Shown here one piece after another: positions 5,641 through 32,660 of a stretch of DNA of 64,000 nt. Made by a program: the position numbers and the translations under genes. Under the pieces are notes generated by a model that searched no databases, was not told where the DNA came from, and saw nothing but the letters and a program-made list of their open reading frames with translations. Every line of letters begins with the position of its first letter. Within the stretch, counting starts at the first letter, position 1. Source of the stretch: Bacillota bacterium (GTDB lineage Bacteria > Bacillota > Clostridia > Christensenellales > CAG-917); NCBI GenBank assembly GCA_023665365.1, contig JAMPEA010000006.1, forward strand, positions 5,336-69,335, read 5' to 3'.

Positions 5641-5963
5641 TGCCAAATTGAAAACTTTTCACAGTTTTTCCATAAAATATAACTCAATCGAGAAATCAAA
5701 TTATTATCTTCGCTTATCATTATAATAAAACTGCTTGACACAAAACAAGTTAAACACAAACTGCACTTTTTATTATTTGAAATGAAAGAGAAACTCGGCG
5801 CACTCAAAAGCATGTACGAGTGCGATAATCCGCTAAAACTCGCAATTTAGACGCGATACGCAAAAACTAAAAAGTAGCCAAAACTCGTGATTTAGATGAG
5901 AGGCGCGAAAGTGACGCTTGAATGACAAGCCTAACGTACAAAACGTACGTGACGAATAAAAAA

Positions 5964-6038
5964 TTTCGGGGTCCCCATAAAATGCCCCAAGGGGTCCCCA
6001 TAAAATGTCCCTATTTTATGGGGTAATTTTTGTGGGGG
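5964..6038 (+). repeat. Family B REP-like hairpin (TTCGGGGTCCCC...GGGGT), one copy nested in another
   Basis: GGGGTCCCCATAAAATG at 5968 and 5991. Related copies at 15486, 27011, 27326, 61692(-), 61914(-), 63200 and 63676. Confidence 0.8.
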
Positions 6039-6040
6039 CA

Positions 6041-6186
6041 AAACACCAAGCAAAAGATTTTTGGGTAATATTTTGAAAAATCTTAGCAAAAATGTTTTGC
6101 GCGGTAGTAACGAAAAAATTTTACTGAAAGGAAAGCACTCACATTTTATATGTGGGAGCTTTCAAAACAGTACATATTTTTTCGTT
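6041..6186 (+). repeat. Family G repeat plus long variable hairpin
   Basis: AACACCAAGCAAAAGATTTTTG...AAAATGTTTTGCGCGGTAG recurs at 63711-63775; followed by a hairpin at 6109-6186. Confidence 0.75.
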
Positions 6187-6206
6187 TGACAAAGCATATC
6201 GCTAAA

Positions 6207-6836
6207 TCAAGAGTTTTGGAGCATGGATTTGACTTTCATCAGGCGCGTAGTAGCCCCGCGCTCGTTCTCGTCCAATTTCATCGTGATATACTTTATAGTC
6301 TCTTCAAGCTGAGGTATCATGACGTATTCGAGGGCGTTGACGCGACGGCGATTGCGCTCGATTTCGTCGGCGAGCATATTGCAGGTTTTTTCCACTTCGG
6401 CGAGCTTTAAGAGTTTTGGCAGCAGAGTGGACAGCGACGCGACAGCGCTGTCGAGCTCGCTCGTGACCGACGCAAAGGAATAGGGATAAAGCTCCTGCGT
6501 GCCATTGTTGATGATTTCAAATACGGGGACTTCGACGCTCATCACGTTTTGCGAGGATACGTTGAGTTCCACCTTAGTGCCGGGCAAGGCAATCGCTTCC
6601 TCGATAACCGCGTCTGACGACACTGCGCGCGCAAGCATAAAGGATTTGAGGGATTCTTGAAGTTCGCCCTCGACCTCCTCTCTGAGGCGCTTGTTTTCGC
6701 GCACGTAAAGCATAAATCTGCGAATCATCTCGTCGGATTTATCTTTTAGCAATTTATGTCCGCGAGTGGCGGTTTTGAGGCGCGTTTTGAGGCGTCTCAA
6801 CTCCATTCGCGTGGGATTGACGTTGAGTTTTGCCAT
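6207..6836 (-). CDS. ntpD: V/A-type ATPase subunit D
   Basis: [17 protein letters not shown] and RRRVNALE motifs. Confidence 0.97.
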
Positions 6837-14375: not shown

Positions 14376-14720
14376 TCAGTCTTGAACGGTTTGTTCGTCA
14401 ATAATATATTTGGCAAGTAGAATTTCTACGACCTTATCCGCACATTCCTCGACGGCGGGCTTTTTTTCCTCGATGAAATACTCGGCGTCCTCGGCGCCTT
14501 TTTTCAAAATTTCGTCGGTCTTTTCGGCGGCGCGTTCGCGTGCGCTTTGCAGGATATTTGCCCTATCCTGCTTACATTCGCCGATAGTGGCTTTCTTCTC
14601 CGCCTCGGCGTCCGCCTCGGCTTTGAGCACGATGTTTTTGCCGCGTTGATAGGCGTTCTTTTGCATCTTTTCCGCCTTTTCCTCGGCTTCTCTCACGTCT
14701 TTAAGCACGTCGTCTATCAT
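14376..14720 (-). CDS. ntpF: V/A-type ATPase peripheral stalk subunit G/H (E. hirae NtpF)
   Basis: Charged coiled coil VREAEEKAE; first gene of the ntp order FIKECGABD. Confidence 0.8.
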   Translation of the reverse strand: MIDDVLKDVREAEEKAEKMQKNAYQRGKNIVLKAEADAEAEKKATIGECKQDRANILQSARERAAEKTDEILKKGAEDAEYFIEEKKPAVEECADKVVEILLAKYIIDEQTVQD

Positions 14721-15166
14721 AGATTACCCTCTTCGATGTCGCTTATCATATCCAATCGCCTCTGATGCCTGCCGCCCTCGTATTCGGCGGTGAACCAAGC
14801 CTCAACGATTTTCTCCGCCTCGGCGGGAGTGACAACTCTGCCCCCGAGCGCGATTATATTTGCGTTGTTGTGATTTTTGGTGAGCTTAGCCATATAGGTA
14901 TTCGTCACGACAGCCGCCCTTATCCCTTTGACCTTGTTTGCGGCAATGGAAATGCCAATGCCCGTGCCGCACATAACTACGCCGAGGTCGCACTCGCCCG
15001 AGGCGACCGCCTTTGCAACCTTCTCGCCGTACAGCGGATAATCGACCGAACTTTCGTCAAAACAACCGAAGTCCTTCACTTCCGCCCCCAAGCGTTCGAG
15101 CGTACTTACAACGCTGTCTTTCAGCACAAAACCGCCGTGGTCGCACCCGATAGCAACTTTAACCAT
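14717..15166 (-). CDS. rpiB: Ribose-5-phosphate isomerase B
   Basis: IGCDHGG, SVDYP, CGTGIGISIAANK, HNNAN and GGRHQRR motifs. Confidence 0.97.
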   Translation of the reverse strand: MVKVAIGCDHGGFVLKDSVVSTLERLGAEVKDFGCFDESSVDYPLYGEKVAKAVASGECDLGVVMCGTGIGISIAANKVKGIRAAVVTNTYMAKLTKNHNNANIIALGGRVVTPAEAEKIVEAWFTAEYEGGRHQRRLDMISDIEEGNL

Positions 15167-15318
15167 AACAAAGCTCCCTAATAATTTAGTTTATTATACT
15201 ACGATAGTTTTTAAAAATCAACTTAAATCGGTTTTCATAGGCTTGATTAAATAAAAATTAAATGTATTATTATGTAATTATATATATAAAAAATATAAGT
15301 GATATAGATAACTATATA

Positions 15319-15700
15319 AGCTGTGCGTCGTGTACTCTAAAATATATAGCCCACCCCTTCCGACTTCGCGGTTTGCAAGGCAATCCCGCTCGTTCGCTTT
15401 GGCTACAAACAATCCACTGGATTGTTTGCTTAACGCGTCGCGCCCTTTGGGCTTTCCATTTCACTTTTTATAGCGCGCGCGTTTCGGGGTCCCCACAAAA
15501 TGTCCCTATTTTGTGGGGTATAGTATCGTCCACTCGACGCTTACAGCGCGAGATTATGCCACTCGTTCGCGGAAATTAAAACAACAATTTTCCGCTCACT
15601 TGTACTCATTCTGGCACTTGGCACTCCCTTCCTCCGCGCCCTGCGCGTCGCGTTCTAAACGTCGTAACAACTTTGCGTCGTGCTCACCCTCACTCAAACT
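15319..15700 (-). ncRNA. Family F structured element, copy 1 (candidate ncRNA or non-autonomous mobile element)
   Basis: Blocks shared with 32047-32470 (46 nt with 1 mismatch; 35 nt identical); covarying hairpin 15569-15595; carries nested family B (15486-15519) and an AAACAATCCACTGGATTGTTT palindrome (15407-15427). Confidence 0.55.
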
Positions 15701-15709
15701 TTAAACCTC

Positions 15710-15896
15710 AAAAGCTCGCGTAAAACTCTGCAATTTAGATACAGTACGCGAAAGGAGCGATTTTATCTTTTTTCAAACCTATAAAAAACTTGCATAAGCG
15801 CGATAAATTATAAATATAAAAGCTCGCGTAAGCGCGATATTTAGATGAAGAACGCGAAAGAGGCGTTTGTTAGCTGTCTCAAATCGCAAAAATTAT
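15710..15896 (+). repeat. Array of truncated family A left arms
   Basis: AAAGCTCGCGTAA...ATTTAGAT...CGCGAAAG at ~15711 and ~15819, a degenerate unit at ~15785, then the full element at 15897. Confidence 0.8.
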
Positions 15897-16043
15897 AAAA
15901 AGCTCGCGTAAACCCTGTAATTTAGATGAGATGCGCGAAAAAGCCCCGTTTCAAGTCGCCTAGTGTACTAACGTACACGACGACGAAGAAACGGGGCTTT
16001 GACAAAGCATATCGCTAAATTACAGGGTTTACGCGAGCTTTTT
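15897..16043. repeat. Family A hairpin element (complete copy A2) overlapping the stop codon of the giant gene
   Basis: Perfect 29-bp outer inverted repeat (15897-15925 / 16015-16043); inner stem AAGCCCCGTTTC/GAAACGGGGCTT; apical GTGTAC/GTACAC. Confidence 0.9.
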
Positions 16044-19000
16044 GAGTTTCGACTTGCGCAACACAAACGCCACCACCGTCCACACAACCGCGATTGCAAC
16101 CAAACTTGCGCCGACGGCAATCAAGATGATTTGCCATAGCGGCATAACGTTTGCTGTGAACTCGACGAATACGAGCGCGCCGAGGTAGTCGGTGGTATAG
16201 GTAATCTTTCCGTCGGCCACGGTGTAGCCTTCAAGGAGTTTGAGCCCGCCGTCTGCGGTGACGGTGTAGATTGCCTTGTCTTTCAAATCGCCGACGGTCT
16301 CGGGGACGGCGACGCTTACTTCAACACTTCCGCCGTTGAGCGTGACGGGCGTATCGTCGCAGTAGATTTCAAGTTTGACGATGGATGAGAGTTTGGCTTG
16401 GTTGTTGATATGCGGCATATACTCGTTGACGTCGCTCCAAAGCCCCAAATCCGTGCCGCTGCCCTTATCCTGCGTAATCTCTTTTGCGACGAGCCTATTT
16501 GCGACGATATTCGAGCCGACGTTGATGCTCGCGTCGGAGGCTTCGACGTTCTTGGTGGTGAGCACGAGTACGCCCTGTGCGCCCACGAGCTTATAGTTGT
16601 TTTCGTCGAGGTCGCCCTTTACAATCTTGATTGAGAAGGGGTATCTGCCTGCGGATGTGATTTCCTTATCGAAGGAAAGCACGGTCTGAGATTTGGGCAG
16701 TTGCAACGCCGCGTCCAATCCCGACATATTTATGATGTCATATGCGATTTCATAGCTCGTCTTAGCGCTGTCGTACTCGGCGGTCAAGGTCTTGACGGAG
16801 GTATTTGGGACTTCCGTATAGCCGACGTTTGAAATAATCACGTCCACAGTAGCCGTCAAAATCTTGTAGGTCACGGCGACCGTATCCGTCGCATAGTTGG
16901 GATAATCGTCCGCGAAGCTACTGTTAAGCTCGATTGTCACGCGATAAGTGCCGGCGTTGCGCATCTCGTCAACGGCTTCGTAGTCTTTGCCGCGCAGGAC
17001 GGCGTAAGAGATATTCACGTGATTTGCGGACAAATCGCAGACGGAGCTAATCATCTTGTTTACGCCCTCGCCGCCGACTTCGTAGGCATAGGGCTTGCCA
17101 TCGTAGTATTTGGAAGTCGTCACAGCCGAGAGTTGCGCGTTCGCTCTTGCAACGAAGATAGAAACTTCGTCGCCGCTAATCCAGAGATTGCAGTATCCGC
17201 GCGGGTCGCCCTCGTCGATTTTGATTGCTCTCCTGACGACGACGTGTCCGACGTACGCGCTGTCGGAAGCGTTTATGACTTCGACGGCTTCGTCGGCGTT
17301 GCCCAAGCCTATTTCGTCGCCCGCGGCGAGCGCGCCGAGAATGAGATTTTTCACTTGGTTGCTGCCGTCGTAGGTGAAGTTGAACGCATTGTTTTCAGCG
17401 CCGCGCAAGGTCAAGCCCGCCATGTCGGGGAGTTTGATTTCAAGCGTGGACGCGGCGGATTTGAACGGATACATTGCGCCGCTTTCGTCGCCCGCGACAG
17501 CGTAGGTCGTCATGACGTTGCCGTCTGCGACCTCGAAGCCCGTGCCGAGAATGACGTTGTAGTTTGAAGATGCATAGTCCGCGTTTTCGGGAGCGAACAC
17601 GCGAGCCGCGTAGATTTCGTCATCGCCGAGCCCGACGTTGATGCCGTCGCCTTTGCTTATAAGCGCGTATTTGTAGGCGGATTGATAGGTGTTGAGGTCA
17701 ACGATTTCGTCGGCATTTTCCGCGCCGAGCATAATCCACTCGCCCGTTGTGAGATTGAGTACGCCCCATCTGACTTCGGGCAGTACGCCTACGAAAGTAT
17801 TGTGCGCGTTTTCGCCTGCCGCGAAGCCCTCGCCGCCGTCCTTATTGAGGTAGAACAGTTCCACGGTCGGGTCGATGTCGCCGTAGGTCTTGGAGTAGTT
17901 TTTGCCTATCGTCAAAGTGCCCGTAGTCGTGACGTAGAGGTCCTTTTGAGCGACGGTGAGAACGCTGTTGCCCTCGGTATTCGTCTCGCTGTACTTGGGC
18001 TGGAACACGAAGTTATCAATCGCGGTGACGGCGAGGTTGTACGTCAGCGAACTTTCGCCCGCTTTGGGGACGGGGTTTTCAAAGGTGACGTTCACTGTGG
18101 GCAACGAGGATACGGACAGTCTTATATAGTATTTATCCAAATCGTTTTGGTTCACTTCGCCGTCGTACTTGTTAAAGCCGTTGAGCGTTTCGCCGTCCTT
18201 GACGATGACGTACATGCTTGCCGCAAAGTCCTTTTTATAATCGGCGAATTTAAAGCCCATCATATCTTCGAACTGTTCGAGCGCCAAGTAGAGTTGTCCC
18301 TCCCACTCGGTCAACAGATACAAGCCGTCGGAATTGGCTTCACTTGTGTTGTTGCCGTGCGCCAAGTAGGTGACGTCGCCGACAATTTTGTTGAGCGCCG
18401 TGCCGTACTCGACGTTGCCGTCGTTGAGGATAGCGTCGATAGGACGTCTTATAATTTCGCCCTTGTGCCTTGCCGGAGTGATATTGTCGTCTATGCTGTA
18501 ATTGAGATAGTCTTTGCTGGTTTCATTGTTTTCGTCGGCAGGACCGATTCCGCCGGGAGTAAACTCAACGTAGTTTGCATAAGTGGAGGAGTTTTCGTAT
18601 TTTGCAACGACTCTGACTACGCTTACGTCGTCGCCGGGGATTACGCCTACGACTCCGCCCTCTATATAGCTGTAATCAACGTCCTCTACGCCGTAGAAGT
18701 ACGTCGTTCCGTCGTACATTTTGGTAAACGCGTCTTCGTTTATCACGTCGATAGCGTCCGAGGAAATGGACAACCCTTTCTGGTTGATTTTGCCGTAGCC
18801 GTTGACGTAGGTCATAGCCGCGGGGAGCGATTTGATGACCTCGGCATCGCTATCGTCATAACCGTCGTATGCGGAATATATCGCGTAGACCTCGCCCACG
18901 TCTTCGAGCGCGTATCTGCCTGCGACCGCGCCCGCCGCGAACGCATTAGCTATTGCGACCTTGTTGTTGTCGTTGATTGCGATATATTTGTCCGCCGTCG

Positions 19001-22000
19001 GGAGCGCGTAGTAGCAATAATCCACGTTATAGTAATTTCCCTCATCGTCCTGCGGCGGGACTTCGCCGTAGTGAAGCACGCCCTCAAAATCGACGTATGC
19101 CAGATAGTCGCCCAAGCCCAAATAGTTGCCGTCGGCATCCTTATATTTTCCGTTATCGTCGGGGGCAATATATTTATCGGTTGTGATAGCAAGCACGTAG
19201 TTGACGATGCGGCTGCTCGTATATGTGCCGAGCTCGGGGTTGAACACAGTGCCCTCTTTGCCGACGACCTGCTCGCCGTCGATGGCGACGTTTTTATCGA
19301 TATAGTAGGCGGTTTTGTCGTAAACCACTACGTCGTATCCGCCGCGCGAGTCCATGCCGATCATCGTTTCTGTTTTCAGCTCGAACTTGACATTGTTGCT
19401 TGCGCCCTCTATCAACGCTTTGCCGTTGTACTCTTTTTCGCCCAAATCGACGGTGAAGCCGATAGGTCTTGGGAGAATGTTTGCGATGCGTGTTCTTTCT
19501 GTCGCGGACAGGAAGTAGTTGTTGAGCAAGTGCTCGTGACCGACCTCTGCGACAAGCTCGAACTTATCGATTGTGACGCGCAGATTCGTACCCACGTTTG
19601 ACCCATTAAACGTGCCGATGGCTTTGATAGAGAGGTACTTTGCCTGCTCCTGCCCATCGTCCTCGATGATGCCGGAGTTTTTAAGGGTAATCTTGACGTC
19701 GGCGGTGTTGTAGCCGTCGTAGACCTTATCCTTGATGACTATATTGTTGTCAAGGACTTTGACTTCCTTGCGGCTGATTGTAAGAACGTCGAACAGCTCG
19801 TAGTCATTTACTTTGTTTTCCTCGCCGATTTCGACGGTGACGTAGCTTCCGTCAACGGTCATACTGTACATGACGTAGTTTCCAAGGTCCACGCCCTCCG
19901 CGAGGAGCTTGACCCCGCGCACGATGACGTCGCGCTTGATGAGATTGCCGTTGTTCTCGTCGATGAGGACGTTTGCATTTTCAACGCCGTCCTTGGAGAG
20001 GAAATATTCGATATCGCCTTCGTTTGTGATTTTTTCAAGCTCGTCCATGAGGTCGAACGTATAGTTTTCGGCGATGAACTCGTAGGTATATTCGTGCCCG
20101 CGGGACGGTTCGACTTTCGCCTTGCCGTTGTACTCTCTGTCCTTAAAGACGACGTTGGGGATGAGTTTCGCCTTGTTTACGGTGACTTTTAACGCGTTGT
20201 CGCCCGAGTAGTAGGCGTTGAGCGCCTCTAAGTCGAGCTTGTAGTTGTCGCTGCTGACGTAAGACTCGTCGGTGATTTCGACGGAATGGTCAATGCCCGC
20301 GTTGACGTTGCCGTCGTTGATTTTAGTGAAGATATTGACGCTTACGATATTGACGTCCTCGTCGGCGAGCGCGCCGTGAGCGAGGGTGATTTCGGTACGT
20401 TTCACGTCCGCTTTCGAGGTGTAATCTTGCGCGACGGGTTTAATTGACACGAAGTCGTCCGCGCCGAGTATCTTTTGCGTGATAGAGGCGGCGAGGTCCT
20501 TGATATTGATGCGCACGCCCTCGTTTTCGATGATGGTGATTTGGATAGTCTCGTCGTAGTACGCGTCGGTATCCTTAATTTCGATACTGCCCTCCTCCTT
20601 GATGCCGGGGAAGTCGAAGAAAAGCGTAATCTCGACGTAGTAGCTATTCACGTCGGCTTTCGGGAATGTCGTGCCGCTGATGAGGTGCGAGGCTGACGTA
20701 CCCCAGAGGCGATACAGCATAGTAGAGCCGCCGTTCGCGTCGGAGCGGTTTTTGATTTGGATATTTTGCGCGTAGATGCCCGTGCCGCCGTCGTAGACCT
20801 TGGACACTGAGAAGTCCGACTTATAAATTGCGATTGCGCCCATGGAAATCGTGATGCGAGCGGATTTTTCGTAGGGCTTGTTGTTGAGGTAGTAGATGAC
20901 GACCTTGACGTTAACGTTTTGGCTGTTGAAGTCGAGTTTAGTAGAGTCGGTGATGAGCGTATCGCCGTTCCACAGCTCGTTTTGGGGGTCGTCGCTCGGG
21001 AGGTTGCTGTCGTTGACGATAGTGCCGAGGCGGTAGTTGTTTGCCGACGAACCTTCGAGGCGGAGATTTGTGAAGATAATGCCTACGTTGGTAGGTTCGC
21101 TCATCGAGCCTACGCCGGTATACACCGCGTCGAAAGCGAGGCGGAGGTCGTCGATAGCCCTTACGAGCTCGCTCGAAAGGTTATAAGCGAGGGTCGCGCC
21201 AAAGTCCACCGTATTTGTGTTGTCGAACGCCCTATTGACGCCGACGAAGTTTTGGACGCGGAGGTTGACGGCTTTCTGCTCGATGACGAATTTCTTTGCG
21301 GTATCGAGCAAAGCTCTGACGGTGAAGCCGCTGTTGGAGCTTGTAAACGCCGATCCGACCGCGAAGCTGTAATAGTCGCCGTTGCCGCCGATGATGAAGC
21401 CGTTGTTGTAAGTTGCGGGGTCGTACTGCTCGCCGAACGCGCGGAAAGCGCCGTTATTTGCGTAGCGACCTCTGACGTAAGCGCCGGAGATGGTGCTTCT
21501 TATATCCGTCCTGCTAATGCCTGCGTAGCTTTCGCCAATGGGGAAGTCCTTGCCGTTGATAGACACGATAACGTAGTCGAAATTAAATCCGCTATCGGAG
21601 TTGCCGTAGATTTTGCTATCGTCTCTATTCGTAGGTCTGATGACAATCTCGACGGGGTTTACTCTTATGGTAAACGTGCCGACGACGACTCTATTTTCGA
21701 GTTCCTCGTTGCCGTTGAGGAGTTTCGCGTCCGAGACGACGACGTTATAGCTGCCCGCGCCGAGGTATCCGTCGGCGAGGTTGACAGTCCACGAAACGTC
21801 TGTGAAATCGGGCATTGTGGGAAGCTCTGTACTCTCGACCAAATAGCCGTTGTCGTGCAGGTATTTATAGGTCAATTCTTTGCCTTGGATTTGTCCGTAG
21901 AGGAAGTCGAGGCTGACGCCGTCCCTTATATTGATGATGACAGCGTCGGGATTGCCGATATAGATATAGTAGATTGCGCCCTCGGCGAGGGTGATAATCA

Positions 22001-25000
22001 TCTCGTTTGTTTCGACGACGTTATTATTGCCGAGGACTATATCGTAGGCATATCCGCCGAAGTAGCCATCGTAGCCCGTGCTCCAAACGCCGTCGCCGCT
22101 TAGCATAAGCAGACCCGCGACCGCGGTTTTAATAGCGTCGGCAAAGGTCACGTCCTTGCTTTCGAGCGCGTAGTCGAGCGTAATGCCGCTTGTATCGGGA
22201 GCGTTATCGGGGTCATACTCGCTATTCAGTTTGACGAGGAACTGCCCGCTTGCGTCGATGCTGACCTGCCTCTTTTGGATTGTAAAGGTCTTGCCCTCGA
22301 CGGAGAGGACGATTTCGTAGTTATTGTTGTTTGTGGTAATGGCGCTTGACGCGTCGTAGGTATACGAGCCGACCGCCTCGCCCGCTGCGCGCGTAATTCT
22401 TCCGCCCGACGAGAAGATGAGGAGTTTATCTTTTTGCTCGATAAAATCATAGCCGTTGAGCAACACCTCTTTTTTGATGAGGTTTTCGATACTGCCTGTG
22501 CCGCCTACGGCGGTAAACCAACCGAACTGCTCCGTGCTTACCGAGAAGTAGATAGCGGGGTCGGAGTTGCCGAACTGTTTAGACTGATCTACTGCCGAGA
22601 CGTTGACCGTCCTTTGCTTGACAGTGTGCTTTATGCCCTCTTTGAACTCAACAGCGTAGTTTTCGCTTACACTCTGATCCTCGTGGCGCACGATAAAGAG
22701 CCTCTCTTGGATTATCTCGTAGATGGCGGCGTCTATTTCGAGAGAATTGCCCCAGTAGGCGGCGTCGAGTTTGAGACTGCCGTCAAGATATTCGCCCGTA
22801 AGCGGCGCTTCGTACTTGCCGTCCGCGTTCAATTCGCCGACAAATCCCGAGATTTCGAATTTGAGCTCGATTTCGTCGCCGTACACGCTTTCGGTTGCGA
22901 CAGGCGTGATTACCACAAGCCCTTGGAGAATTGAGAACTGTATCGGGACGTTGAAGCCTAATTTGTTATCCGTCTCAGACGGCGCAAGGACGAACGCCTC
23001 GTTATATTGTTTATTATTTTCATCAGTATATATATCATCTAAATATATACGAATATAATAAGTGCCGACGTCGATGGGAATTCCGTCAAACTTTACGCCG
23101 CTTTGCGAAGCGTTGTCGAAAGAGGAGTAGAACTCGAATTTGAGATATTCCTTTGCGGCTTCGTCGCTTAAATCCACGTAGTTAAGCATATTGAGCTTGG
23201 TCGCGTCGTAGAATTTGTTTGCGCTCGGAGTTTTTGAAACGATCTTTCTTACGGACGCGGTGAAATTGACGTTGTTTTTCGAGCCGTTCGCGTCAACAGG
23301 AAGCATGTCAAACTTATCGTTGTCGTCGAGCTTGTAAGTGATAGTATACTCGTTGCTGTTCTCGTCGTGCGTGACGGTGATTAGCGATGCGAAGCTGTCA
23401 TCCGCGATTGTAAACGTATTGCCGGACGTGTAATTGTAAAGCAAATTGGTCTCGCCTACGTTGAAGCGGAAAGGCGCGTAGCCGCTGTTGGGCGCGAAAG
23501 TGAGCGTGACGGTGTCGCCGCGCTTAGCCGCATCTATATCGGCAGAAAGAGTGCCGTTTTTGCCGAAGTTATTATCGCCTATAACCGCGTCGAGCATGGA
23601 TGCGCTTACTGTATACTCCGTCACGTCAATGAGCACGTAGTACGAATTGAGCTTTGACACGCGTCCCGACTGGTCCACCGACCAAACGTAGATGACGCGC
23701 ATACCCGCGCCGAGGCTCTGCTTAAACTCGACGTTGAGGTCTACGCTGGATTCCGTGAGTTCGTCGAGCGTGTAAATTTTGAGCGTATCGAGGTTAGTGC
23801 TGCTCAAAATCGAGTTTATATATTCCTCTGATTTATCGATCGCAAGCCCTTTATACGCCTTCTCCATATCAAAGACTGTGCCGAATTTTTCAAACGCCTC
23901 GACGGTATTAAGATATTTAACCGCTATGAAAACGCCCATTTTCGTATTAAAGGAGCTGTTTGCAACTACTGAATCATAGAACGAAGAAAGCGTGGCGCTT
24001 AGCGCATAATTATCAGTTTTCCACTTTTTGTTTGCCGCGTCGAACTTATAAAGCAGAGTATGCGTTTCCTCGTTGCTATTTGCCGCGAGGTAGCCGTCCG
24101 AGCCGTCGCTCAGCGTCGGAGTGTCGGGGTCAATGCGGTCGATGAAGATGCTTGCCTTTCCCTTGGATGCCGCTTTTTTTAAAGAGGGGTCGCCTTCCAT
24201 ATCCGCCACGCTCGCGTATGCGACCGTCGATATATCGAAAGCCGTCCTCCAAGCGACCGTCGGAAACGCGCCGCTTTCGTTGCCCTCGAATGTCACTACG
24301 ATAGTGCCGACGTAATTTTTGGCTGCGGCATAATACTCTACGCTATATGTGAAGTAAACGTCTGTTATATCAAGCTCTGTCACAACGTCCGACAAGGTAA
24401 TTTGCCCTGTTTCGTCATCTTTATTAGTGCCAATCAACCCGTTCCCTTGGTCGCTTTGGGTATAAAGTTTAAGATTGCCCTCTCTGTCGAAGCAAAGTAT
24501 ATATACCTTTTCGTTTTTATCCGTAAATTTGATTGTATTTCCCGAGAAGTTGATTGCCGAGACAGTGAACGTCAACGTAGTGTCGCCCATTGCCCAAACG
24601 CCGTCGGTATCCTTGGTTTGGAATATATTTTCCTGCGATATTGTTTCCGTATTGTCGGTTGTTTTGACCGTTGCATTGACCGAATAATCCGAGCAGTCGT
24701 CGTAGTCAACCTTGACGTAGTACGTGCTTGACGTTGAATTAAATCTGCCCGACGCGTCTATCATATAAAAGTCGAAACGATAGTAGCCTGCGCCTGTCGC
24801 GCTGACCCCCTGCGGACTGCTTACGTTATAATCGGTTGATTTATAACCCTTTGCCTTGCCTGTTTCAAAGTCGTATTCAAATTTCGAAAAAGAACCGTAG
24901 CCTAACGGCAACATTGTAGATTGACTCTTTATTGAGCTATACTTTGTATATCTGGAATTGGTCAAGCCGCTTATTGTGTCGGCGCGTTTAACGGTGTAGA

Positions 25001-26849
25001 ACCACACGTACGGCGCGTCGTCGTCGGCTTCGGGCACAGTGACGGTAGCAGAAAACTTCTTTTGCTTATACCATTTCGTATCTGTCCTTTGAAGCGCGGT
25101 AGTAGTGGTTGCCACGTATGAGTAATCGCCCGCAAGCGCTTCGAGCGTGGTGTCTCCTTTGACTTCTGACAAATCGATGCCGCTGAACGTTACGTTAGAC
25201 TCGCACGTGCCGTTGCCGTAGTCTTTGACCGTAATTTTCAATTCGACGTTTTGCAACGCGTATAGGTACACTCTCACACGCGCCCTGTTAAACTTGGCGA
25301 CCACAAGATATCCGACAACAGTATTCGCCACTCCGTTTACTTTTCCCTTAATTTCAACCCGATCGCACATATTGGTTGAATCCACCGAGTTTGTGTTAGA
25401 CGCAGTAATCTTTGTATCGTACATATACTGCGTAGTCGCAGATACAGTATCGCTTCCGATTGTGCCGGAAACCGCAATGGATTTTATGCCGGAAGCCACT
25501 TTTGTCGCAGTCTTAACGTCGGTATCCGCCGACCAGCCGTTAGTGGCGTCGTACGTATATCCGCCGATACCCATATACTTCCTTACGTCGGCGGTTGACG
25601 TGTACGTAGACGTGTTGAATGCGCCGCTTGACGCCGTGCCTGCCGAGTAGTTATAAGTATCGGCAAAATCTATCTCGGCGCTCTTGTAATACTTTGTAGA
25701 TACGCTATCTTTTCCGATAGTCTTTGTTAGCTCTTCCGACGTATATGAATTCAAAGTCCAGCCGGCAGACGGATTGCCCTTATCAGCAGCCTTTTCAAGG
25801 TCGCTTTGGAGGATTTGATAATAAACGGGCCAATTACTGTTGGGAGTCGGACGATATGGCGTATAAAGCTCGCACGCCTTCTTGGCGTCTACGTCGGTAG
25901 CATTGCCCGTAAGCTCGTGCGTCGTCTTGTCCTCGCCAAACACCGTGCTCATTTTGACAGGATGTCCGCCGTCCTTGATTGAAGTTGAAGCACTGTCTGC
26001 GGCATTGGATAATGAGAGCGTAAAGGTCAGACTGATGGATTCTATGTATATGTATCTATCATATCCTACACCCAAAGTAGACTTTTTCGGCCAATCCATG
26101 CCTATACATATCCCCAAAAACTTGTTTCCTGTGCTGAGCGTTGCGTCGCTTGCAGTATATGTCGTATTAGAAGTTTCCTTTTTAGTTGCGTCAGTTGTAT
26201 AGCCCCTAAGGGTAGTCTCTAATCCGCTTGACGCCGGCATTTTGTTAATGCCAAACGCTTTGTACCACACATTATTTGTATATCTATTTTCTACTACCTT
26301 AAATGAAAATTTTGCCTTGACAGTAATATTGCTATTGTCAATCATTTGGCACAAAAAGTCGCTTAACTCGTAAAACAAGAATAACTGAGCATCATATGGA
26401 TCGACAGCCTTTTCAACGCGAACCTGCCATTTGCCCTTTTGATTTTCTCTGCCTGTTAATTTTGGATTTCCGCCAGATTTAATAAGGACTTGGTTTGTTT
26501 GAGTCGGCGTAACTTCATTAAAATTGTCCGTAGCCGTCCAAGACGTTTTCGTAGTCGTCGTGCCGGGGAAGGTGCTTGTGAAATCTGTATATTTCAACGC
26601 GCCTTTTGCACCCGTGATGGTTTCGGGCACGCCGCCGAGAATAGTACCTTTATCTCCCGACGAATAGTTGCCGTCATTATTTTCCGCCGACGCAACGTTG
26701 TCTAAGCCGTTATTCGCAAAATCACCGTTATTCGTATTAGGCGCAAACGCCAACGTGAGACTGAATGCCAGCGCAAAACACATTGCTACGGCAACAAGCG
26801 CCATCACCTTGATTGCGCCCTTTTTCTTCCACGTCTTGCTTTCTCTCAT
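16029..26849 (-). CDS. Giant (3606 aa) cell-surface protein with MBG/YDG-type repeats and a C-terminal membrane anchor
   Basis: N-terminal signal (KKKGAIKVMALVAVAMCFALAFSLTLAFA); repeated KVYDG/KMYDG/KEYNG and KIYGNSD/KTYGDIDP motifs; C-terminal TM helix followed by RKSKLKK. Confidence 0.85.
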   Translation of the reverse strand: MRESKTWKKKGAIKVMALVAVAMCFALAFSLTLAFAPNTNNGDFANNGLDNVASAENNDGNYSSGDKGTILGGVPETITGAKGALKYTDFTSTFPGTTTTKTSWTATDNFNEVTPTQTNQVLIKSGGNPKLTGRENQKGKWQVRVEKAVDPYDAQLFLFYELSDFLCQMIDNSNITVKAKFSFKVVENRYTNNVWYKAFGINKMPASSGLETTLRGYTTDATKKETSNTTYTASDATLSTGNKFLGICIGMDWPKKSTLGVGYDRYIYIESISLTFTLSLSNAADSASTSIKDGGHPVKMSTVFGEDKTTHELTGNATDVDAKKACELYTPYRPTPNSNWPVYYQILQSDLEKAADKGNPSAGWTLNSYTSEELTKTIGKDSVSTKYYKSAEIDFADTYNYSAGTASSGAFNTSTYTSTADVRKYMGIGGYTYDATNGWSADTDVKTATKVASGIKSIAVSGTIGSDTVSATTQYMYDTKITASNTNSVDSTNMCDRVEIKGKVNGVANTVVGYLVVAKFNRARVRVYLYALQNVELKITVKDYGNGTCESNVTFSGIDLSEVKGDTTLEALAGDYSYVATTTTALQRTDTKWYKQKKFSATVTVPEADDDAPYVWFYTVKRADTISGLTNSRYTKYSSIKSQSTMLPLGYGSFSKFEYDFETGKAKGYKSTDYNVSSPQGVSATGAGYYRFDFYMIDASGRFNSTSSTYYVKVDYDDCSDYSVNATVKTTDNTETISQENIFQTKDTDGVWAMGDTTLTFTVSAINFSGNTIKFTDKNEKVYILCFDREGNLKLYTQSDQGNGLIGTNKDDETGQITLSDVVTELDITDVYFTYSVEYYAAAKNYVGTIVVTFEGNESGAFPTVAWRTAFDISTVAYASVADMEGDPSLKKAASKGKASIFIDRIDPDTPTLSDGSDGYLAANSNEETHTLLYKFDAANKKWKTDNYALSATLSSFYDSVVANSSFNTKMGVFIAVKYLNTVEAFEKFGTVFDMEKAYKGLAIDKSEEYINSILSSTNLDTLKIYTLDELTESSVDLNVEFKQSLGAGMRVIYVWSVDQSGRVSKLNSYYVLIDVTEYTVSASMLDAVIGDNNFGKNGTLSADIDAAKRGDTVTLTFAPNSGYAPFRFNVGETNLLYNYTSGNTFTIADDSFASLITVTHDENSNEYTITYKLDDNDKFDMLPVDANGSKNNVNFTASVRKIVSKTPSANKFYDATKLNMLNYVDLSDEAAKEYLKFEFYSSFDNASQSGVKFDGIPIDVGTYYIRIYLDDIYTDENNKQYNEAFVLAPSETDNKLGFNVPIQFSILQGLVVITPVATESVYGDEIELKFEISGFVGELNADGKYEAPLTGEYLDGSLKLDAAYWGNSLEIDAAIYEIIQERLFIVRHEDQSVSENYAVEFKEGIKHTVKQRTVNVSAVDQSKQFGNSDPAIYFSVSTEQFGWFTAVGGTGSIENLIKKEVLLNGYDFIEQKDKLLIFSSGGRITRAAGEAVGSYTYDASSAITTNNNNYEIVLSVEGKTFTIQKRQVSIDASGQFLVKLNSEYDPDNAPDTSGITLDYALESKDVTFADAIKTAVAGLLMLSGDGVWSTGYDGYFGGYAYDIVLGNNNVVETNEMIITLAEGAIYYIYIGNPDAVIINIRDGVSLDFLYGQIQGKELTYKYLHDNGYLVESTELPTMPDFTDVSWTVNLADGYLGAGSYNVVVSDAKLLNGNEELENRVVVGTFTIRVNPVEIVIRPTNRDDSKIYGNSDSGFNFDYVIVSINGKDFPIGESYAGISRTDIRSTISGAYVRGRYANNGAFRAFGEQYDPATYNNGFIIGGNGDYYSFAVGSAFTSSNSGFTVRALLDTAKKFVIEQKAVNLRVQNFVGVNRAFDNTNTVDFGATLAYNLSSELVRAIDDLRLAFDAVYTGVGSMSEPTNVGIIFTNLRLEGSSANNYRLGTIVNDSNLPSDDPQNELWNGDTLITDSTKLDFNSQNVNVKVVIYYLNNKPYEKSARITISMGAIAIYKSDFSVSKVYDGGTGIYAQNIQIKNRSDANGGSTMLYRLWGTSASHLISGTTFPKADVNSYYVEITLFFDFPGIKEEGSIEIKDTDAYYDETIQITIIENEGVRINIKDLAASITQKILGADDFVSIKPVAQDYTSKADVKRTEITLAHGALADEDVNIVSVNIFTKINDGNVNAGIDHSVEITDESYVSSDNYKLDLEALNAYYSGDNALKVTVNKAKLIPNVVFKDREYNGKAKVEPSRGHEYTYEFIAENYTFDLMDELEKITNEGDIEYFLSKDGVENANVLIDENNGNLIKRDVIVRGVKLLAEGVDLGNYVMYSMTVDGSYVTVEIGEENKVNDYELFDVLTISRKEVKVLDNNIVIKDKVYDGYNTADVKITLKNSGIIEDDGQEQAKYLSIKAIGTFNGSNVGTNLRVTIDKFELVAEVGHEHLLNNYFLSATERTRIANILPRPIGFTVDLGEKEYNGKALIEGASNNVKFELKTETMIGMDSRGGYDVVVYDKTAYYIDKNVAIDGEQVVGKEGTVFNPELGTYTSSRIVNYVLAITTDKYIAPDDNGKYKDADGNYLGLGDYLAYVDFEGVLHYGEVPPQDDEGNYYNVDYCYYALPTADKYIAINDNNKVAIANAFAAGAVAGRYALEDVGEVYAIYSAYDGYDDSDAEVIKSLPAAMTYVNGYGKINQKGLSISSDAIDVINEDAFTKMYDGTTYFYGVEDVDYSYIEGGVVGVIPGDDVSVVRVVAKYENSSTYANYVEFTPGGIGPADENNETSKDYLNYSIDDNITPARHKGEIIRRPIDAILNDGNVEYGTALNKIVGDVTYLAHGNNTSEANSDGLYLLTEWEGQLYLALEQFEDMMGFKFADYKKDFAASMYVIVKDGETLNGFNKYDGEVNQNDLDKYYIRLSVSSLPTVNVTFENPVPKAGESSLTYNLAVTAIDNFVFQPKYSETNTEGNSVLTVAQKDLYVTTTGTLTIGKNYSKTYGDIDPTVELFYLNKDGGEGFAAGENAHNTFVGVLPEVRWGVLNLTTGEWIMLGAENADEIVDLNTYQSAYKYALISKGDGINVGLGDDEIYAARVFAPENADYASSNYNVILGTGFEVADGNVMTTYAVAGDESGAMYPFKSAASTLEIKLPDMAGLTLRGAENNAFNFTYDGSNQVKNLILGALAAGDEIGLGNADEAVEVINASDSAYVGHVVVRRAIKIDEGDPRGYCNLWISGDEVSIFVARANAQLSAVTTSKYYDGKPYAYEVGGEGVNKMISSVCDLSANHVNISYAVLRGKDYEAVDEMRNAGTYRVTIELNSSFADDYPNYATDTVAVTYKILTATVDVIISNVGYTEVPNTSVKTLTAEYDSAKTSYEIAYDIINMSGLDAALQLPKSQTVLSFDKEITSAGRYPFSIKIVKGDLDENNYKLVGAQGVLVLTTKNVEASDASINVGSNIVANRLVAKEITQDKGSGTDLGLWSDVNEYMPHINNQAKLSSIVKLEIYCDDTPVTLNGGSVEVSVAVPETVGDLKDKAIYTVTADGGLKLLEGYTVADGKITYTTDYLGALVFVEFTANVMPLWQIILIAVGASLVAIAVVWTVVAFVLRKSKLKKLA

Positions 26850-28950: not shown

Positions 28951-29253
28951 AAGTAAAAATGCGCTATTTGGCGCACTGCTTCGTTAGACGAGCACGCGAG
29001 CAACCCAACGTACAAACCAAACGCAACTTAAAAACACGATATTTTGCGTCAGACAAAACAGTTAGTTTGTAAAAACGCGATATTGAGATGAGTGACGCGA
29101 AAGTGCCGCCTGAATTACAAGCCTAACGCACACACTTTACATAAGTAAAAACGCGATATTTACGTTAAACAAAGTAATTAGCTAGTAAAAACGCCACTCT
29201 TTCACGCCAATTCTCTGGATTGCTTCGCCAATAAATTAGCTCGCAATGACGAC
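28951..29253 (+). repeat. Array of truncated family A arms sharing (AA)GTAAAAACGCGATATT, with a family C piece
   Basis: Units at ~28951 (opposite arm), 29028, 29069, 29143 and 29184; family C at 29211-29251. Confidence 0.8.
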
Positions 29254-29381
29254 GTAAAAACGCGATATTTGGATGCAGTACGCGAAAGGGGCGATTTTTT
29301 ATCTCGCCTAACGTACAAGTCGTACGTGACGAGTAAAAAATCGCCCCTGACAAAGTAATGCGCCAAATAGCGCGTTTTTAC
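29254..29381. repeat. Family A hairpin element (complete copy A4) overlapping the pckG stop
   Basis: 19-bp outer inverted repeat with 1 mismatch (29254-29272 / 29363-29381); inner GGGGCGATTTTTT/AAAAAATCGCCCC; apical ACGTAC/GTACGT. Confidence 0.9.
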
Positions 29382-31439: not shown

Positions 31440-31982
31440 ATGTCAAACGATTTGATGTTAGCTAAAACGAATAAGCTCGACAGCAAGGAACAAAAACTTG
31501 TCATTCTTTTCGTGTTCGACAAAATGTCCATTCCGCTATCCGAGGCGACCGTGCTCGATATGTGCACCTCAGACAACAACTGGCTCACCTACATGGAGTG
31601 CAAGCAGTACCTCGCCGAGCTTCTCGACACAAACCTCATCTACCGCGTGCCAAAGGCGAATACGCTCAATCTAACGCAGGACGGCGTTTCCTGCCTAAGT
31701 CTGTTTTATATGCGCATCCCCACGTCCATACGCGACGAAATCGCCGCCTACGTGCGCGAAAACCGCATGCGTTTCAGAAAAAAACAGGAGTATTTTTGCG
31801 ACTACTCCAAAAACGCCGACGGCACCTATACAGTAGTCATGCGCATCGACAACAATACGGGCGCGCTCATGGAGCTTAAAATGGTAGTCTCAAACCGCCA
31901 GCGCGCTATGTATATATACAAAAATTGGCTGGATAAGGCGGCTGGGGTTTATACGATGCTCCAAGAAAACCTCGTAGAGTAA
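31440..31982 (+). CDS. DUF4364 family winged-helix protein
   Basis: KLVILF...IPLS...NNWLTYME..QYLAEL..LI...LTQDG pattern. Start probably ATG 31440. Confidence 0.75.
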   Translation: MSNDLMLAKTNKLDSKEQKLVILFVFDKMSIPLSEATVLDMCTSDNNWLTYMECKQYLAELLDTNLIYRVPKANTLNLTQDGVSCLSLFYMRIPTSIRDEIAAYVRENRMRFRKKQEYFCDYSKNADGTYTVVMRIDNNTGALMELKMVVSNRQRAMYIYKNWLDKAAGVYTMLQENLVE

Positions 31983-32037
31983 AACGTTATAATTTGCGTT
32001 GATACTGCGTTAGGAGCGCTCATATTGAGCGCTCCTA
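31980..32037 (+). repeat. Family A gene-proximal half arm starting at the stop codon, closed by a short perfect hairpin (likely terminator)
   Basis: TAAAACGTTATAATTTGCGTTGATACTGCGTTA resembles the reverse complement of 32628-32660; then TAGGAGCGCTCA-TAT-TGAGCGCTCCTA. Confidence 0.7.
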
Positions 32038-32046
32038 AATTATTTT

Positions 32047-32479: not shown

Positions 32480-32660
32480 AAAACCTTGTAATTTAGATGA
32501 TAGGCGCGAAAAAGCGCTCAAACTTAAAGCTCGTAAAACCTCGCAATTTGCGTTCAGACAAGGAAAAGCCCTGTTGCAGACAAGCCAAGTGTACTAAACT
32601 GTACACGACTTGTCGGCAACAGGGTTTTGACGCAGTATCAACACAAATTGCGAGGTTTTA
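32480..32660. repeat. Family A element (complete copy A3, 32534-32660) at the nitroreductase stop, plus a truncated arm at 32480-32516
   Basis: Perfect 17-bp outer inverted repeat; CAAGGAAA / TGACGCAG loop; inner GCCCTGTTGC/GCAACAGGGT; apical GTGTAC/GTACAC. Confidence 0.9.

What the first reader, a model, noticed from the sequence alone, without database searches (positions are those of the whole stretch)
15710..16043. Arrays of truncated A arms: locus-specific outer stem, cores shared between loci
Seen: distal to each complete A element are partial left arms that repeat that locus's own outer stem: AAAGCTCGCGTAA here (15711, 15819, 15899), AAAACTCG at 5835/5880, GTAAAAACGCGATATT at 29069-29254, AAAACCT at 32480/32535. 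The cores that follow differ within a locus but match other loci, e.g. 15742 CAGTACGCGAAAGGAGCGATTTT vs 29275 CAGTACGCGAAAGGGGCGATTTT. Here the outer stem mirrors the gene's last codons (AAAAAGCTCGCGTAA = K-K-L-A-stop). Inference: new cores are repeatedly written into the same gene-end site, the outer arm is re-copied each time and older copies are pushed outward, giving a polarised insertion record. Caveat: a similar AAAGCTCGTAA occurs at 32526, so the element may instead have supplied the gene end.
Basis: partly seen in the sequence, partly recalled or inferred. Interest (0 to 1): 0.8.

Follow-up and report, generated by a model that had tools for sequence, protein, structure and literature searches.

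The report
Stop-codon-docked hairpin repeats with remnant arrays
An uncultured gut Clostridia bacterium carries about sixty copies of a 130-base hairpin-forming repeat that sits on the stop codon of ordinary genes, and behind many full copies lie half-copies that look like leftovers of earlier occupants, so these gene ends appear to be overwritten again and again by an unknown copying process.

Summary
AAAGCTCGCGTAA occurs at 15711, 15819 and 15899 (+) and once inverted at 16029-16041, against 0.34 expected. The inverted copy is the last codons of a 3606-aa gene.

Twenty orthologues keep this K-K-L-A/I/V tail, with or without an element.

The "A element" is a roughly 130-nt rod-like quasi-palindrome with 62 non-overlapping copies in a 1.59-Mb genome. 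It always has one orientation. In 36 of 45 gene-proximal ends it starts on a TAA stop codon.

Of 24 distal partial hits, 22 keep the distal terminus and lack the gene-proximal half. Cores are shared between loci. Outer stems diverge faster than cores yet stay complementary.

In a tight clade of sister species the gene-proximal copy was replaced, and a remnant of the older type lies distal to it.

No Y1, TnpB, DDE or rve transposase was found. My best reading is serial gene-proximal overwriting with hairpin-templated re-copying of the arm. The mechanism is inferred, not shown. At least one unit is a plain local duplication. Earlier scan notes on other genomes describe comparable stop-codon hairpins.

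The parts
15897..16043 (-). Complete A element (a-type core) in gene orientation. It is a 147-nt hairpin whose stem runs 12 nt beyond the family's usual TAAAC...GTTTA ends.
   Evidence: 29-nt perfect arms. MFE -91.8 kcal/mol, z -14.7. Covariance-model hit of 126.7 bits.
16029..16043 (-). Native last codons K-K-L-A plus the TAA stop of the 3606-aa ORF. They form the outermost 5' arm of the hairpin.
   Evidence: Translation. The tail is conserved in 20 of 20 orthologues.
16029..26849 (-). 3606-aa ORF with no Pfam match, a C-terminal hydrophobic stretch and a basic tail. It is conserved across the genus.
   Evidence: 44 of 52 genus genomes match its C-terminus.
15818..15869 (-). Fragment unit 2: mirror of the gene tail (15818-15831), outer stem GCGCGAT, and the left half of a c-type core cut after GAGGCGTTTG.
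   Evidence: 100% identical over 31 nt to C13:9961-9991. Profile positions 4-58.
15785..15817 (-). Degenerate unit 1b (AAAAAACTTGCATAAGCGCGATAAATTA), a likely local tandem duplicate of the start of unit 2.
   Evidence: Direct-repeat family D2, 72%. A contig of the diverged strain in run X3 joins 15788 to 15823, skipping 34 nt, side 46.
15703..15764 (-). Fragment unit 1: mirror of the gene tail (15710-15723), outer stem AACTCTGCA, and the left part of a b-type core.
   Evidence: 94% identical to C22:76506 and C57:28856. Profile positions 4-49.
5834..6218 (-). atpD-end locus. A fragment (5834-5868) lies distal to a complete element (5879-6218) that is split by a roughly 230-nt insert of B-type hairpins. 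The gene's last codons and its TGA lie inside the outer arm.
   Evidence: Comparison with the G023 orthologue.
29028..29381 (-). PEPCK-end locus. A complete b-type element (29254-29381) starts on the TAA stop. Distal to it are units at 29186, 29145, 29069 (d-type) and 29028 (A2-type), all with outer stem (G/T)TAAAAAC(G/A)CGAT.
   Evidence: The site is empty in the closest species.
32480..32660 (-). Nitroreductase-end locus. A complete A2 element (32526-32660) starts on the TAA stop, with an f-type fragment (32480-32517) distal to it.
31979..32040 (+). The 5' part only of an A2-type element on the TAA stop of the DUF4364 gene, followed by a simple hairpin and a T run.

Best explanation
The A elements are a family of gene-less, roughly 130-nt rod-shaped hairpin repeats. 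They are spread patchily through this order of gut Clostridia. Each sits at the 3' end of a gene, always in the sense orientation, with the stop codon as the first bases of the outer stem. I read them as 3'-end modules (terminator or transcript-end hairpins) that are copied between gene ends.

A gene end that is already occupied gets overwritten from the gene side. A new core is installed next to the stop codon. The distal half of the previous occupant survives further out, without its gene-proximal half.

The distal arm of the new copy is then made, or corrected, by copying the gene-proximal arm as a reverse complement. This is fold-back or quasi-palindrome template switching. At some genes the copying runs on into the last codons. 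That is why each unit at 15710-16043 carries a mirror of the native K-K-L-A-stop tail.

What is shown:
- the family itself, its docking on stop codons and its single orientation;
- the polarity of the fragments;
- shared cores with faster-changing but still complementary outer stems;
- the native origin of the gene tail;
- turnover between sister species, with the older type lying distal.

What is inferred:
- transcription and a terminator role;
- a copying mechanism without a transposase;
- that successive units record successive events.
For: Family and docking: there are 62 non-overlapping copies. Of 45 copies with a gene-proximal end, 36 have an open frame of at least 80 codons whose stop lies -4 to +5 from the element end. 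All 36 stops are TAA, while the genome uses TAA in 543 of 1024 long frames. No copy shows the opposite orientation with a frame of 150 codons or more.

Outside this genome: the same family is found in 23 of 151 genomes and 17 of 95 genera of the order. There, 15 of 21 hits are again docked on TAA, TGA or TAG stops that lie inside variable outer stems.

Polarity: 22 of 24 distal partial hits start at model positions 3-12 and end at positions 32-87.

Cores against arms: among 32 pairs with core identity of at least 0.90, the core averages 0.94 identity and the outer stem 0.83 and 0.78. The arms nevertheless pair in 267 of 297 positions. Same-locus outer stems are more alike than chance, p = 0.006.

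Native tail and its mirror: searches show the tail is native. A mirror of at least 12 of 15 bases lies directly after the element in two unrelated lineages, G000 and the G009 clade.

Turnover: G042 has a new type proximal and an old-type remnant distal. G012 is a hybrid in which a new 5' arm and core are joined in register to the resident 3' arm. The PEPCK stop is occupied in G000 and in G057/G063 but is empty in the closest species.

Strain level: the contig of the diverged strain matches from exactly 16029 and is unlike the window beyond that point.

Age: fragments are more diverged than gene-proximal copies, p = 0.013.

No transposase: PF01797, PF07282, PF01609 and PF00665 were not found in a genome that is 99.5% complete.

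Template switching is described as a source of reverse-complement copies and of stem repair (abstract of PMC8794818).
Against: - No read, strain pair or experiment shows an overwriting event in progress.
- Arrays with four core types at a site that is empty in the nearest species could arise in one complex multi-template event.
- Several arrays have fragments whose outer stem differs from that of the complete copy. This fits whole-element insertion better than arm re-copying.
- Template switching does not explain how a naive stop codon is first colonised, nor why almost all copies sit on stops rather than on other A-rich intergenic sites.
- Conserved asymmetric features look like a recognition surface for a protein that I did not find: a U.G pair in 31 of 33 copies, a 2-nt bulge and the invariant ATTT/AAAT.
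- Strand asymmetry of folding energy is weak: 23 of 33 copies, p = 0.09.
- The simple terminator scan does not call the element.
- The genome is a 58-contig assembly in which repeats break contigs, so a repeated transposase gene could be missing.
Confidence: 0.45

Rival explanations
1. An enzyme-driven mobile element. A trans-acting recombinase or nuclease, unrecognised here or missing from this assembly, recognises the folded hairpin and inserts whole elements at stop-codon-proximal sites. Repeated insertion at the same site, followed by deletion of the older copy's proximal arm, then gives the arrays.
For: The apical and internal-loop features are strongly conserved and asymmetric: invariant ATTT/AAAT, a U.G pair in 31 of 33 copies, and a bulge. 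The distribution across 17 of 95 genera is patchy. Near-identical copies lie at unrelated loci. Two complete copies stand in tandem at C47 and in G022. Fragments with their own, different outer stems are seen. Five Xer-like tyrosine recombinases and three serine-recombinase matches are present.
Against: No Y1, TnpB, DDE_Tnp_1 or rve gene was found, and the only GIY-YIG match lies in a 641-residue open frame. None of the recombinases passes a curated cut-off for an integron integrase, and none was linked to an element. Outer arms vary between copies with near-identical cores, which is unlike terminal repeats bound by a transposase. No direct target duplication is visible at the ends. This model does not explain the mirrored gene tail.
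Confidence: 0.25
2. Local tandem duplication followed by ectopic gene conversion. The distal half of one resident element was duplicated by slippage, which keeps the locus-specific arm and the tail mirror. The cores were later converted from other family members. On this reading the array is not a chronological record.
For: Unit 1b resembles the start of unit 2, and a contig of a diverged strain lacks it. The identical tail mirror and arm are repeated at 15710/15818/15898 and at 29069/29145/29254.
Against: The fragments have different lengths and cut points, at model ends 32 to 87. At 15710-15911 the true outer stems between the mirror and the ATTT differ. A half element offers homology on one side only, so core-only conversion is hard to picture. 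The G042 remnant is of the type still complete in sister species.
Confidence: 0.15
3. RNA-mediated copying. The terminated 3' hairpin of the transcript is reverse-transcribed and inserted. Incomplete cDNA gives copies that lack the 5' part, as with LINE elements.
For: In transcript direction every fragment keeps the 3' end and lacks the 5' end. In many copies the copied unit carries a short distal tail (CGAG, CGAGCTTT) beyond the palindrome, as a terminated transcript would. One reverse transcriptase gene exists.
Against: That reverse transcriptase sits beside a bAvd-like gene and looks like a diversity-generating retroelement. No endonuclease partner was found and there are no target duplications. 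No RNA data are available. The model does not explain locus-specific arms.
Confidence: 0.07
4. The half-copies are functional. Alternative 3' partners for the gene-proximal arm would give a switchable structure, in the manner of an attenuator.
For: The right arm can pair with 15818-15842 at 80% and with 15703-15724 at 86%.
Against: Arrays are absent from about half of the occupied loci. They vary between close species and are more decayed than complete copies.
Confidence: 0.05

Closest known systems
REP / BIME / REPIN elements with RAYT transposases (the title and abstract start of PMC2817692 and PMC3733652 were seen in the listing; the rest is recalled)
   Same: Gene-less palindromic repeats that lie just after genes, often in mosaic clusters with other small repeats. 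Hairpin structure is kept by paired changes. Solitary half-units occur.
   Different: Here the unit is a single 130-nt rod with conserved internal loops, not a pair of 20-40-nt units. No Y1 transposase is present. The element has one strict orientation, the stop codon lies inside the stem, and there are polar rows of distal halves.
Bacterial MITEs such as ERIC/IRU (127 bp), Correia/NEMIS and RUP (recalled; PMC2759123 and PMC3184786 were seen only in the listing)
   Same: Similar size and an imperfect palindrome. They lie in transcribed intergenic DNA and can supply gene ends, as at atpD here.
   Different: There are no conserved terminal repeats, because the outer arms vary between copies. No target duplication is visible, and no parent insertion sequence or transposase was found. 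Placement on stop codons is near-exclusive.
Quasi-palindrome template-switch mutation (Monttinen and Loytynoja 2022, PMC8794818, abstract read; abstract starts of PMC7202029 and PMC13100816 seen in the listing)
   Same: A known replication error that writes a reverse-complement copy of one arm onto the other. It makes stems perfect and can lengthen them. This fits the 29-nt perfect arms and the mirrored gene tail.
   Different: It is known as a local mutation process. It is not known to import foreign cores or to build rows of remnants.
Polarised insertion arrays: integron cassette arrays and CRISPR arrays (recalled)
   Same: New units enter at one fixed end and older units move away from it. 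In integrons the recombination sites are folded hairpins that follow each gene and are conserved in shape rather than in sequence.
   Different: There are no cassettes or spacers between units, and older units are truncated. No integron integrase passes its curated cut-off. The hosts are scattered housekeeping genes, not one locus.
Earlier notes of this scan on other genomes: e1-4237135, roughly 128-nt stop-codon hairpins in head-to-tail rows in Alistipes, and the giant-virus stop-docked repeats
   Same: Same size class, one orientation, stop-codon docking and rows of copies.
   Different: No sequence likeness was found (0 windows). Those notes do not report distal-half polarity or mirrored gene tails. 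They are unchecked AI notes.

Membership tests
REP/REPIN (RAYT-mobilised) | A Y1 (HUH) RAYT transposase gene in the genome | tested here: not met
   PF01797 gave 0 matches in a genome that is 99.47% complete, while the control rings in 6 of 14 known genomes.
REP/REPIN (RAYT-mobilised) | Short (20-40 nt) GC-rich palindromic units bearing the conserved head tetranucleotide named in the title of PMC3733652 | tested here: not met
   The unit is one 125-132-nt rod with A/T-rich ends of the form TAAAAC...GTTTTA.
MITE | Conserved terminal inverted repeats shared by all copies | tested here: not met
   Outer-stem identity is 0.83 and 0.78 in pairs whose cores are 0.94 identical. Some pairs are as low as 0.44.
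MITE | Direct target-site duplication flanking each copy | tested here: not met
   The flanks printed show no direct repeat. At two loci the flank is an inverted copy instead.
MITE | A parent insertion sequence or transposase in the genome | tested here: not met
   PF01609, PF00665 and PF07282 gave 0 matches. Other transposase families were not searched, and the assembly has 58 contigs.
Integron attC sites / attC clusters without an integrase | An integron integrase, and the conserved 7-nt core sites at both ends of each site | tested here: not met
   The five tyrosine recombinases score 56-106 bits against a cut-off of 265 for the integron integrase model. The element ends do not fit the core-site consensus as I recall it (a recalled consensus, read by eye).
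Intrinsic (Rho-independent) terminator | A stable stem followed by a run of T in the sense direction, and transcripts that end there | tested here: inconclusive
   The stem is very stable and is followed by TTTTT at 15897-15893 in sense direction. The simple scan does not call it because the loop exceeds its limit. No RNA run is available.
Any Rfam RNA family | A score above the family's gathering threshold | tested here: not met
   There were 0 matches at gathering thresholds in 64 kb. The best sub-threshold match was RF02901 at 26.3 bits against a threshold of 97.
Diversity-generating retroelement target site | A variable repeat at the gene's 3' end matched by a template repeat next to the reverse transcriptase | not tested
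   A reverse transcriptase plus a bAvd-like gene lie on contig C38. No search for a template/variable repeat pair was run. The elements lie after the stop of about 40 unrelated genes, which does not fit.

The most novel reading that the evidence does not exclude
Gene ends in this bacterial order are rewritten by a transposase-free copy-and-overwrite process. A stalled or broken hairpin at the stop codon is repaired from another family member. The nascent strand then folds back and copies the gene-proximal arm, sometimes running on into the last codons. The old occupant's distal half is pushed outward. Each array would then be a readable, polarised history of terminator replacement, comparable in logic to a CRISPR or integron array but built by replication errors.
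Probability: 0.25. Interest if true: 0.85.

Novelty: new variant of a known kind. Interest (0 to 1): 0.6.

Why it matters
Small palindromic repeats after bacterial genes have been known for forty years, but how most of them spread is still unclear where no RAYT or transposase is present. This family offers an unusually clean set of clues:

- exact docking on the stop codon;
- one orientation;
- cores that move between loci while the outer arms stay local and complementary;
- reverse-complement copies of native coding sequence;
- ordered rows of remnants that agree with the species tree in one clade.

If the rows record successive replacements, they give a way to date and order terminator turnover in uncultured gut bacteria. 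They would also point to hairpin-templated copying as a way to spread DNA without a dedicated enzyme.

The practical side is smaller. These repeats break assemblies: several contigs of this genome end inside them. They can also change the last residues of proteins, as at atpD.

Tried and rejected
- **Rfam:** no family matched at gathering thresholds. Only chance-level matches appeared at E up to 10.
- **tRNA/tmRNA:** none found.
- **CRISPR link:** the window holds a type II-A locus. Its 36-nt repeat is unrelated to the element, so this link was dropped.
- **Hammerhead or box C/D readings of the GATGA...GAAA and CTGA motifs:** rejected on topology. The helices stack in one rod.
- **Shufflon or invertible C-terminus:** rejected because the stop codon lies inside the repeat, so inversion would not change the protein.
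- **Element-supplied gene tail at 16029:** rejected by the orthologues.
- **Donor flank carried along with the spacers 15765-15832 and 15870-15897:** no other copy of these spacers exists in the genome.
- **Mobilising genes:** searches for Y1, TnpB, DDE_Tnp_1 and rve found nothing. The only GIY-YIG match lies in a 641-residue open frame, which I take to be UvrC-like from its size alone.
- **Strand preference by folding energy:** weak, 23 of 33 copies, p = 0.09.
- **Strain-level loci in JGI metagenomes:** none encodes a relative of the big ORF's C-terminus.
- **Sequencing runs:** no RNA holder is listed. The three DNA holders are short-contig assemblies from one study that break at the repeats, so no contig spans the array. 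Several joints (15652 to 15939, 15764 to 15939, 15669 to 15742) have short sides and may come from other copies.
- **Empty-site footprints in G023:** at 81-86% DNA identity the intergenic DNA is too diverged to define an insertion footprint.
- **Earlier-findings look-up by sequence:** nothing found.
- **Supplementary files of papers:** not consulted.

Full report
**Setting**

The window is G000:C55:5336-69335, from a 1.59-Mb genome of 58 contigs and 48% GC that is 99.47% complete. By its PEPCK protein, the nearest named public records are uncultured Christensenella, Christensenellales and Clostridia gut assemblies. Candidatus Limadaptatus stercoripullorum is 87% identical.

The finding lies between rpiB (14717-15166, -) and a 3606-aa ORF with no Pfam match (16029-26849, -).

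**Observation**

- AAAAGCTCGCGTAA stands at 15710, 15818 and 15898.
- A perfect 29-nt inverted repeat joins 15897-15925 to 16015-16043.
- The right arm contains the stop and last four codons of the big ORF, which reads ...LRKSKLKKLA*.

The 13-mer occurs four times exactly in the window against 0.34 expected. The locus-3 arm GTAAAAACGCGATATT occurs seven times, allowing up to two mismatches, against 0.15 expected. The cores of the truncated units match copies elsewhere at 92-100%.

Three corrections are needed.
1. At this locus the repeated string is a mirror of the gene tail lying outside the usual stem. The true outer stems of the units differ.
2. There is a fourth, degenerate unit at about 15785-15817.
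3. AAAACCT at 32480/32535 is the family consensus, not a locus-specific sequence.

**The element family**

A profile built from 17 complete copies finds 72 hits, which reduce to 62 non-overlapping copies: 35 complete, 10 with only the gene-proximal part and 17 with only the distal part. Several of these lie at contig ends.

Read in gene direction, the unit has these parts in order:
- the stop codon and outer stem (consensus TAAAACCTTGTA);
- an invariant ATTT;
- a 6-7-bp helix with one conserved mismatch;
- an internal loop (TTTGTCA opposite TTTCGCG);
- a variable helix of 10-14 bp;
- an apical hairpin, GTC-ACGTAC-loop-GTACGT-TA-GGC, with a U.G pair in 31 of 33 copies and a 2-nt bulge.

Of 35 predicted pairs, 26 show double changes that keep the pair. 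A second core type (A2) shares the ends and the apex.

Both strands fold about equally well. The values are -91.8 and -93.1 kcal/mol for this copy. The sense strand is more stable in 23 of 33 copies, p = 0.09. Folding therefore cannot tell RNA-level structure from DNA-level structure.

No Rfam family matches.

**Docking on stop codons**

Of the 45 copies that have the gene-proximal end:
- 36 have an open frame of at least 80 codons whose stop lies -4 to +5 from the element end, and all 36 stops are TAA;
- four more have the stop at about 11-12 nt (three TAA, one TGA);
- five have none.

No frame of 150 codons or more ends on the other side of an element. The genome as a whole uses TAA in only 543 of 1024 long frames.

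The covariance model R1 finds the family in 23 of 151 sampled genomes and 17 of 95 genera of the order. At most 22 candidates per genome were scored, so these are lower bounds. In 21 hits fetched from 12 of those genomes, 15 again have a frame ending within -15 to +20 of the 5' end. The stop is TAA, TGA or TAG and lies inside an outer stem that differs from copy to copy.

**Arrays**

With a permissive search of the 650 nt distal to each gene-proximal copy, 15 loci show extra partial hits. Of 24 same-strand partial hits, 22 start at model positions 3-12, so their distal terminus is intact, and end at positions 32-87. The two exceptions score 1 and 7 bits.

The reverse arrangement, a distal fragment that keeps the gene-proximal end, was not seen. 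Copies that keep only the gene-proximal part exist, but they sit directly on a stop codon: C14:1013, C41:3234, C44:49574 and window 31979.

Rows of distal halves with a repeated local arm are also visible in other genera, in L077, L078 and L090. Tandem second copies, one of them lacking its 5' outer arm, appear in L082, L086 and L087.

**Cores against arms**

Among the 32 pairs of complete copies whose cores are at least 0.90 identical, the nine variable outer-stem positions are only 0.83 (5' arm) and 0.78 (3' arm) identical. Some pairs fall to 0.44. Yet the two arms of each copy pair in 257 Watson-Crick plus 10 G-T of 297 positions.

Fragments resemble the outer stem of the complete copy at their own locus more than those at other loci: 8.1 against 7.2 of 12, permutation p = 0.006, n = 22. 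This is strong at 29028-29381, at 5834-6218 and at C14:18889. It is absent at C34, C22:102634, C17 and C2:21137.

**The gene tail is native**

The C-terminus of the big ORF is found in 44 of 52 genus genomes. All 20 fetched orthologues end in K-L-K/S/Q-K-L/I/M-A/I/V/M/D/L-stop. The covariance model finds an element at the gene end in only 10 of those 20. G054, G052 and G049 have ...KKLA* with no element.

The distal AAAAGCTCGCGTAA copies are therefore reverse complements of native coding sequence.

A mirror matching at least 12 of 15 bases lies directly after the element in G000 and in L037, L039, L040 and L044. On the tree these are two separate lineages. In G000 the palindrome runs into coding sequence only here (12 nt) and at C14:18889, whose gene ends ...LKLI*.

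The opposite case also exists. At atpD the protein ends SMLQNS* with its TGA inside the outer arm, whereas G023 has SMLQTQNEV*.

**Turnover between species**

The bigORF-rpiB synteny is conserved. The tree of the last 450 residues gives (G044,(G017,G012,G009,(G042,G056))) with supports of 100/99 and 99/99 and very short branches.

- G044, G017 and G009 carry one element type.
- G042 and G056 carry another.
- G042 keeps the last 26 nt of the first type, with its own mirror of the tail, distal to the new complete copy and before the shared flank GTATATGGTATTTTT.
- G012 is a hybrid in which a third 5' arm and core are joined in register to the 3' arm of the G042 type.
- In G022 a complete copy is followed by a second copy that lacks only its 5' outer arm.

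The PEPCK stop is occupied in G000 (a complete copy plus four units), and in G057 and G063 by a different subtype. It is empty in the closest species, G054, G023 and G022. It is also empty in 22 of 23 named loci.

In G023 the DUF4364 and nitroreductase genes overlap by 12 nt. In G000 they are separated by 675 nt of repeats.

**Strain-level hints**

Three runs from one study hold the region as short contigs. In run X3 a strain about 2.6% diverged has a contig that matches the window from exactly 16029 to 17200. Its 63 further letters do not match the window, so the difference begins at the stop codon. Another X3 contig joins 15788 to 15823, removing unit 1b, which is itself a 72% copy of the start of unit 2. 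These are contigs, not reads, and no contig spans the array.

**Age**

Over the first 32 nt of the core, fragments are less similar to their nearest relative than gene-proximal copies are. Medians are 0.91 against 0.95, Mann-Whitney p = 0.013, with 16 fragments and 33 complete copies. The copies are related to one another, so this p value overstates the evidence.

**Search for a mover**

- PF01797 (Y1), PF07282 (TnpB), PF01609 and PF00665 gave no match.
- The only GIY-YIG match lies in a 641-residue frame.
- Five Xer-like tyrosine recombinases are all below curated cut-offs.
- There are three serine-recombinase matches.
- The single reverse transcriptase sits beside a bAvd-like gene, as in diversity-generating retroelements.
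- None of these is adjacent to an element.
- Elements that carry an insert carry only B-type hairpins, never an ORF.

**Reading**

The data fit a 3'-end hairpin module that is copied between gene ends and overwrites resident copies from the gene side. The perfect arms of the newest copy, the locally constant arms around foreign cores, and the reverse-complement copies of native codons made twice independently are what intra-hairpin template switching produces (abstract of PMC8794818). The import of a foreign core would need a further switch to another copy, or break repair from one.

This is inference. It does not explain the first colonisation of a naive stop codon. The conserved asymmetric loops would also suit an unidentified hairpin-binding enzyme, so I keep that rival at 0.25.

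Plain duplication explains unit 1b but not the differing cut points and stems. RNA-mediated copying would explain the one-sided truncation and the short distal tail (CGAG...) shared by many copies, but it lacks a plausible enzyme.

**Novelty**

The literature searches listed REP/RAYT, MITE and template-switch papers. None of the titles and abstract starts listed describes stop-docked 130-nt rods with polar remnant rows. I read only the listing lines and one abstract, so this is not proof of absence from print. Earlier notes of this scan describe comparable stop-codon hairpins in Alistipes and in giant viruses, with no sequence likeness to this family.

I class the family as a new variant of the known kind "small non-autonomous palindromic intergenic repeats".

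Noticed in passing
window 15-5385 (-), with the array on the same contig upstream of the window (C55:1340-4540): A complete type II-A CRISPR-Cas locus. It has cas9 (1392 aa), cas1, a 106-aa ORF in the cas2 position and a further ORF, followed by about 48 copies of a 36-nt repeat. It is unrelated to the hairpin family.
   Followed up: partly
window 5966-6040 and 15487-15520; at least 41 copies genome-wide: A second repeat family of about 34 nt (GGGGTCCCC-GCAAAAC-loop-GTTTTGTGGGG). It often stands in head-to-tail rows. It is inserted inside A elements, either just before the GACAAAG motif or, in G022 and G045, in the apical loop. It looks REP-like, but no RAYT gene was found.
   Followed up: partly
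window 15617-15700 and 32340-32460: A third dispersed repeat (CTTGGCACTCCCTTCCTCCGCGCCCTGCGCGTCGC...), with at least 25 partial copies in the genome. It lies next to A arrays. ORFs 15262-15579 and 32148-32597, which overlap these repeats, have no Pfam match and are probably not genes.
   Followed up: no
window 29214-29255: A fourth small repeat (CTTCGCCAATAAATTAGCTCGCAATGACGACG), with at least 12 copies. It is wedged between a fragment and the complete element at the PEPCK end.
   Followed up: no
G000 contig C38:1985-2644 (locus L006): The only reverse transcriptase gene of the genome (364 aa) is followed by a bAvd-like ORF, so it is a likely diversity-generating retroelement. A serine-recombinase fragment lies nearby.
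   Followed up: partly
window 16029-26849 (-): A 3606-aa ORF with no Pfam domain, a C-terminal hydrophobic stretch and a basic tail. It is conserved at about 3500 aa across the genus, but its C-terminal 123 residues are only 37-60% identical between species.
   Followed up: partly
window 31982-32657 compared with G023: The convergent DUF4364 and nitroreductase genes overlap by 12 nt in the related species G023. Here they are 675 nt apart, and the whole spacer is made of repeat families.
   Followed up: partly
window 6207-6220: The V-ATPase subunit D gene ends inside the outer arm of an A element. It is three residues shorter than in G023, so here the repeat supplies the last codons and the TGA stop.
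   Followed up: yes
L028 (G054), downstream of the big ORF: This species has no A element. Instead it has two and a half direct copies of its own gene tail (TTAAAAAGCTTGCTTAA) within 70 nt after the stop. Their origin is unknown; they may be a footprint of lost elements.
   Followed up: no
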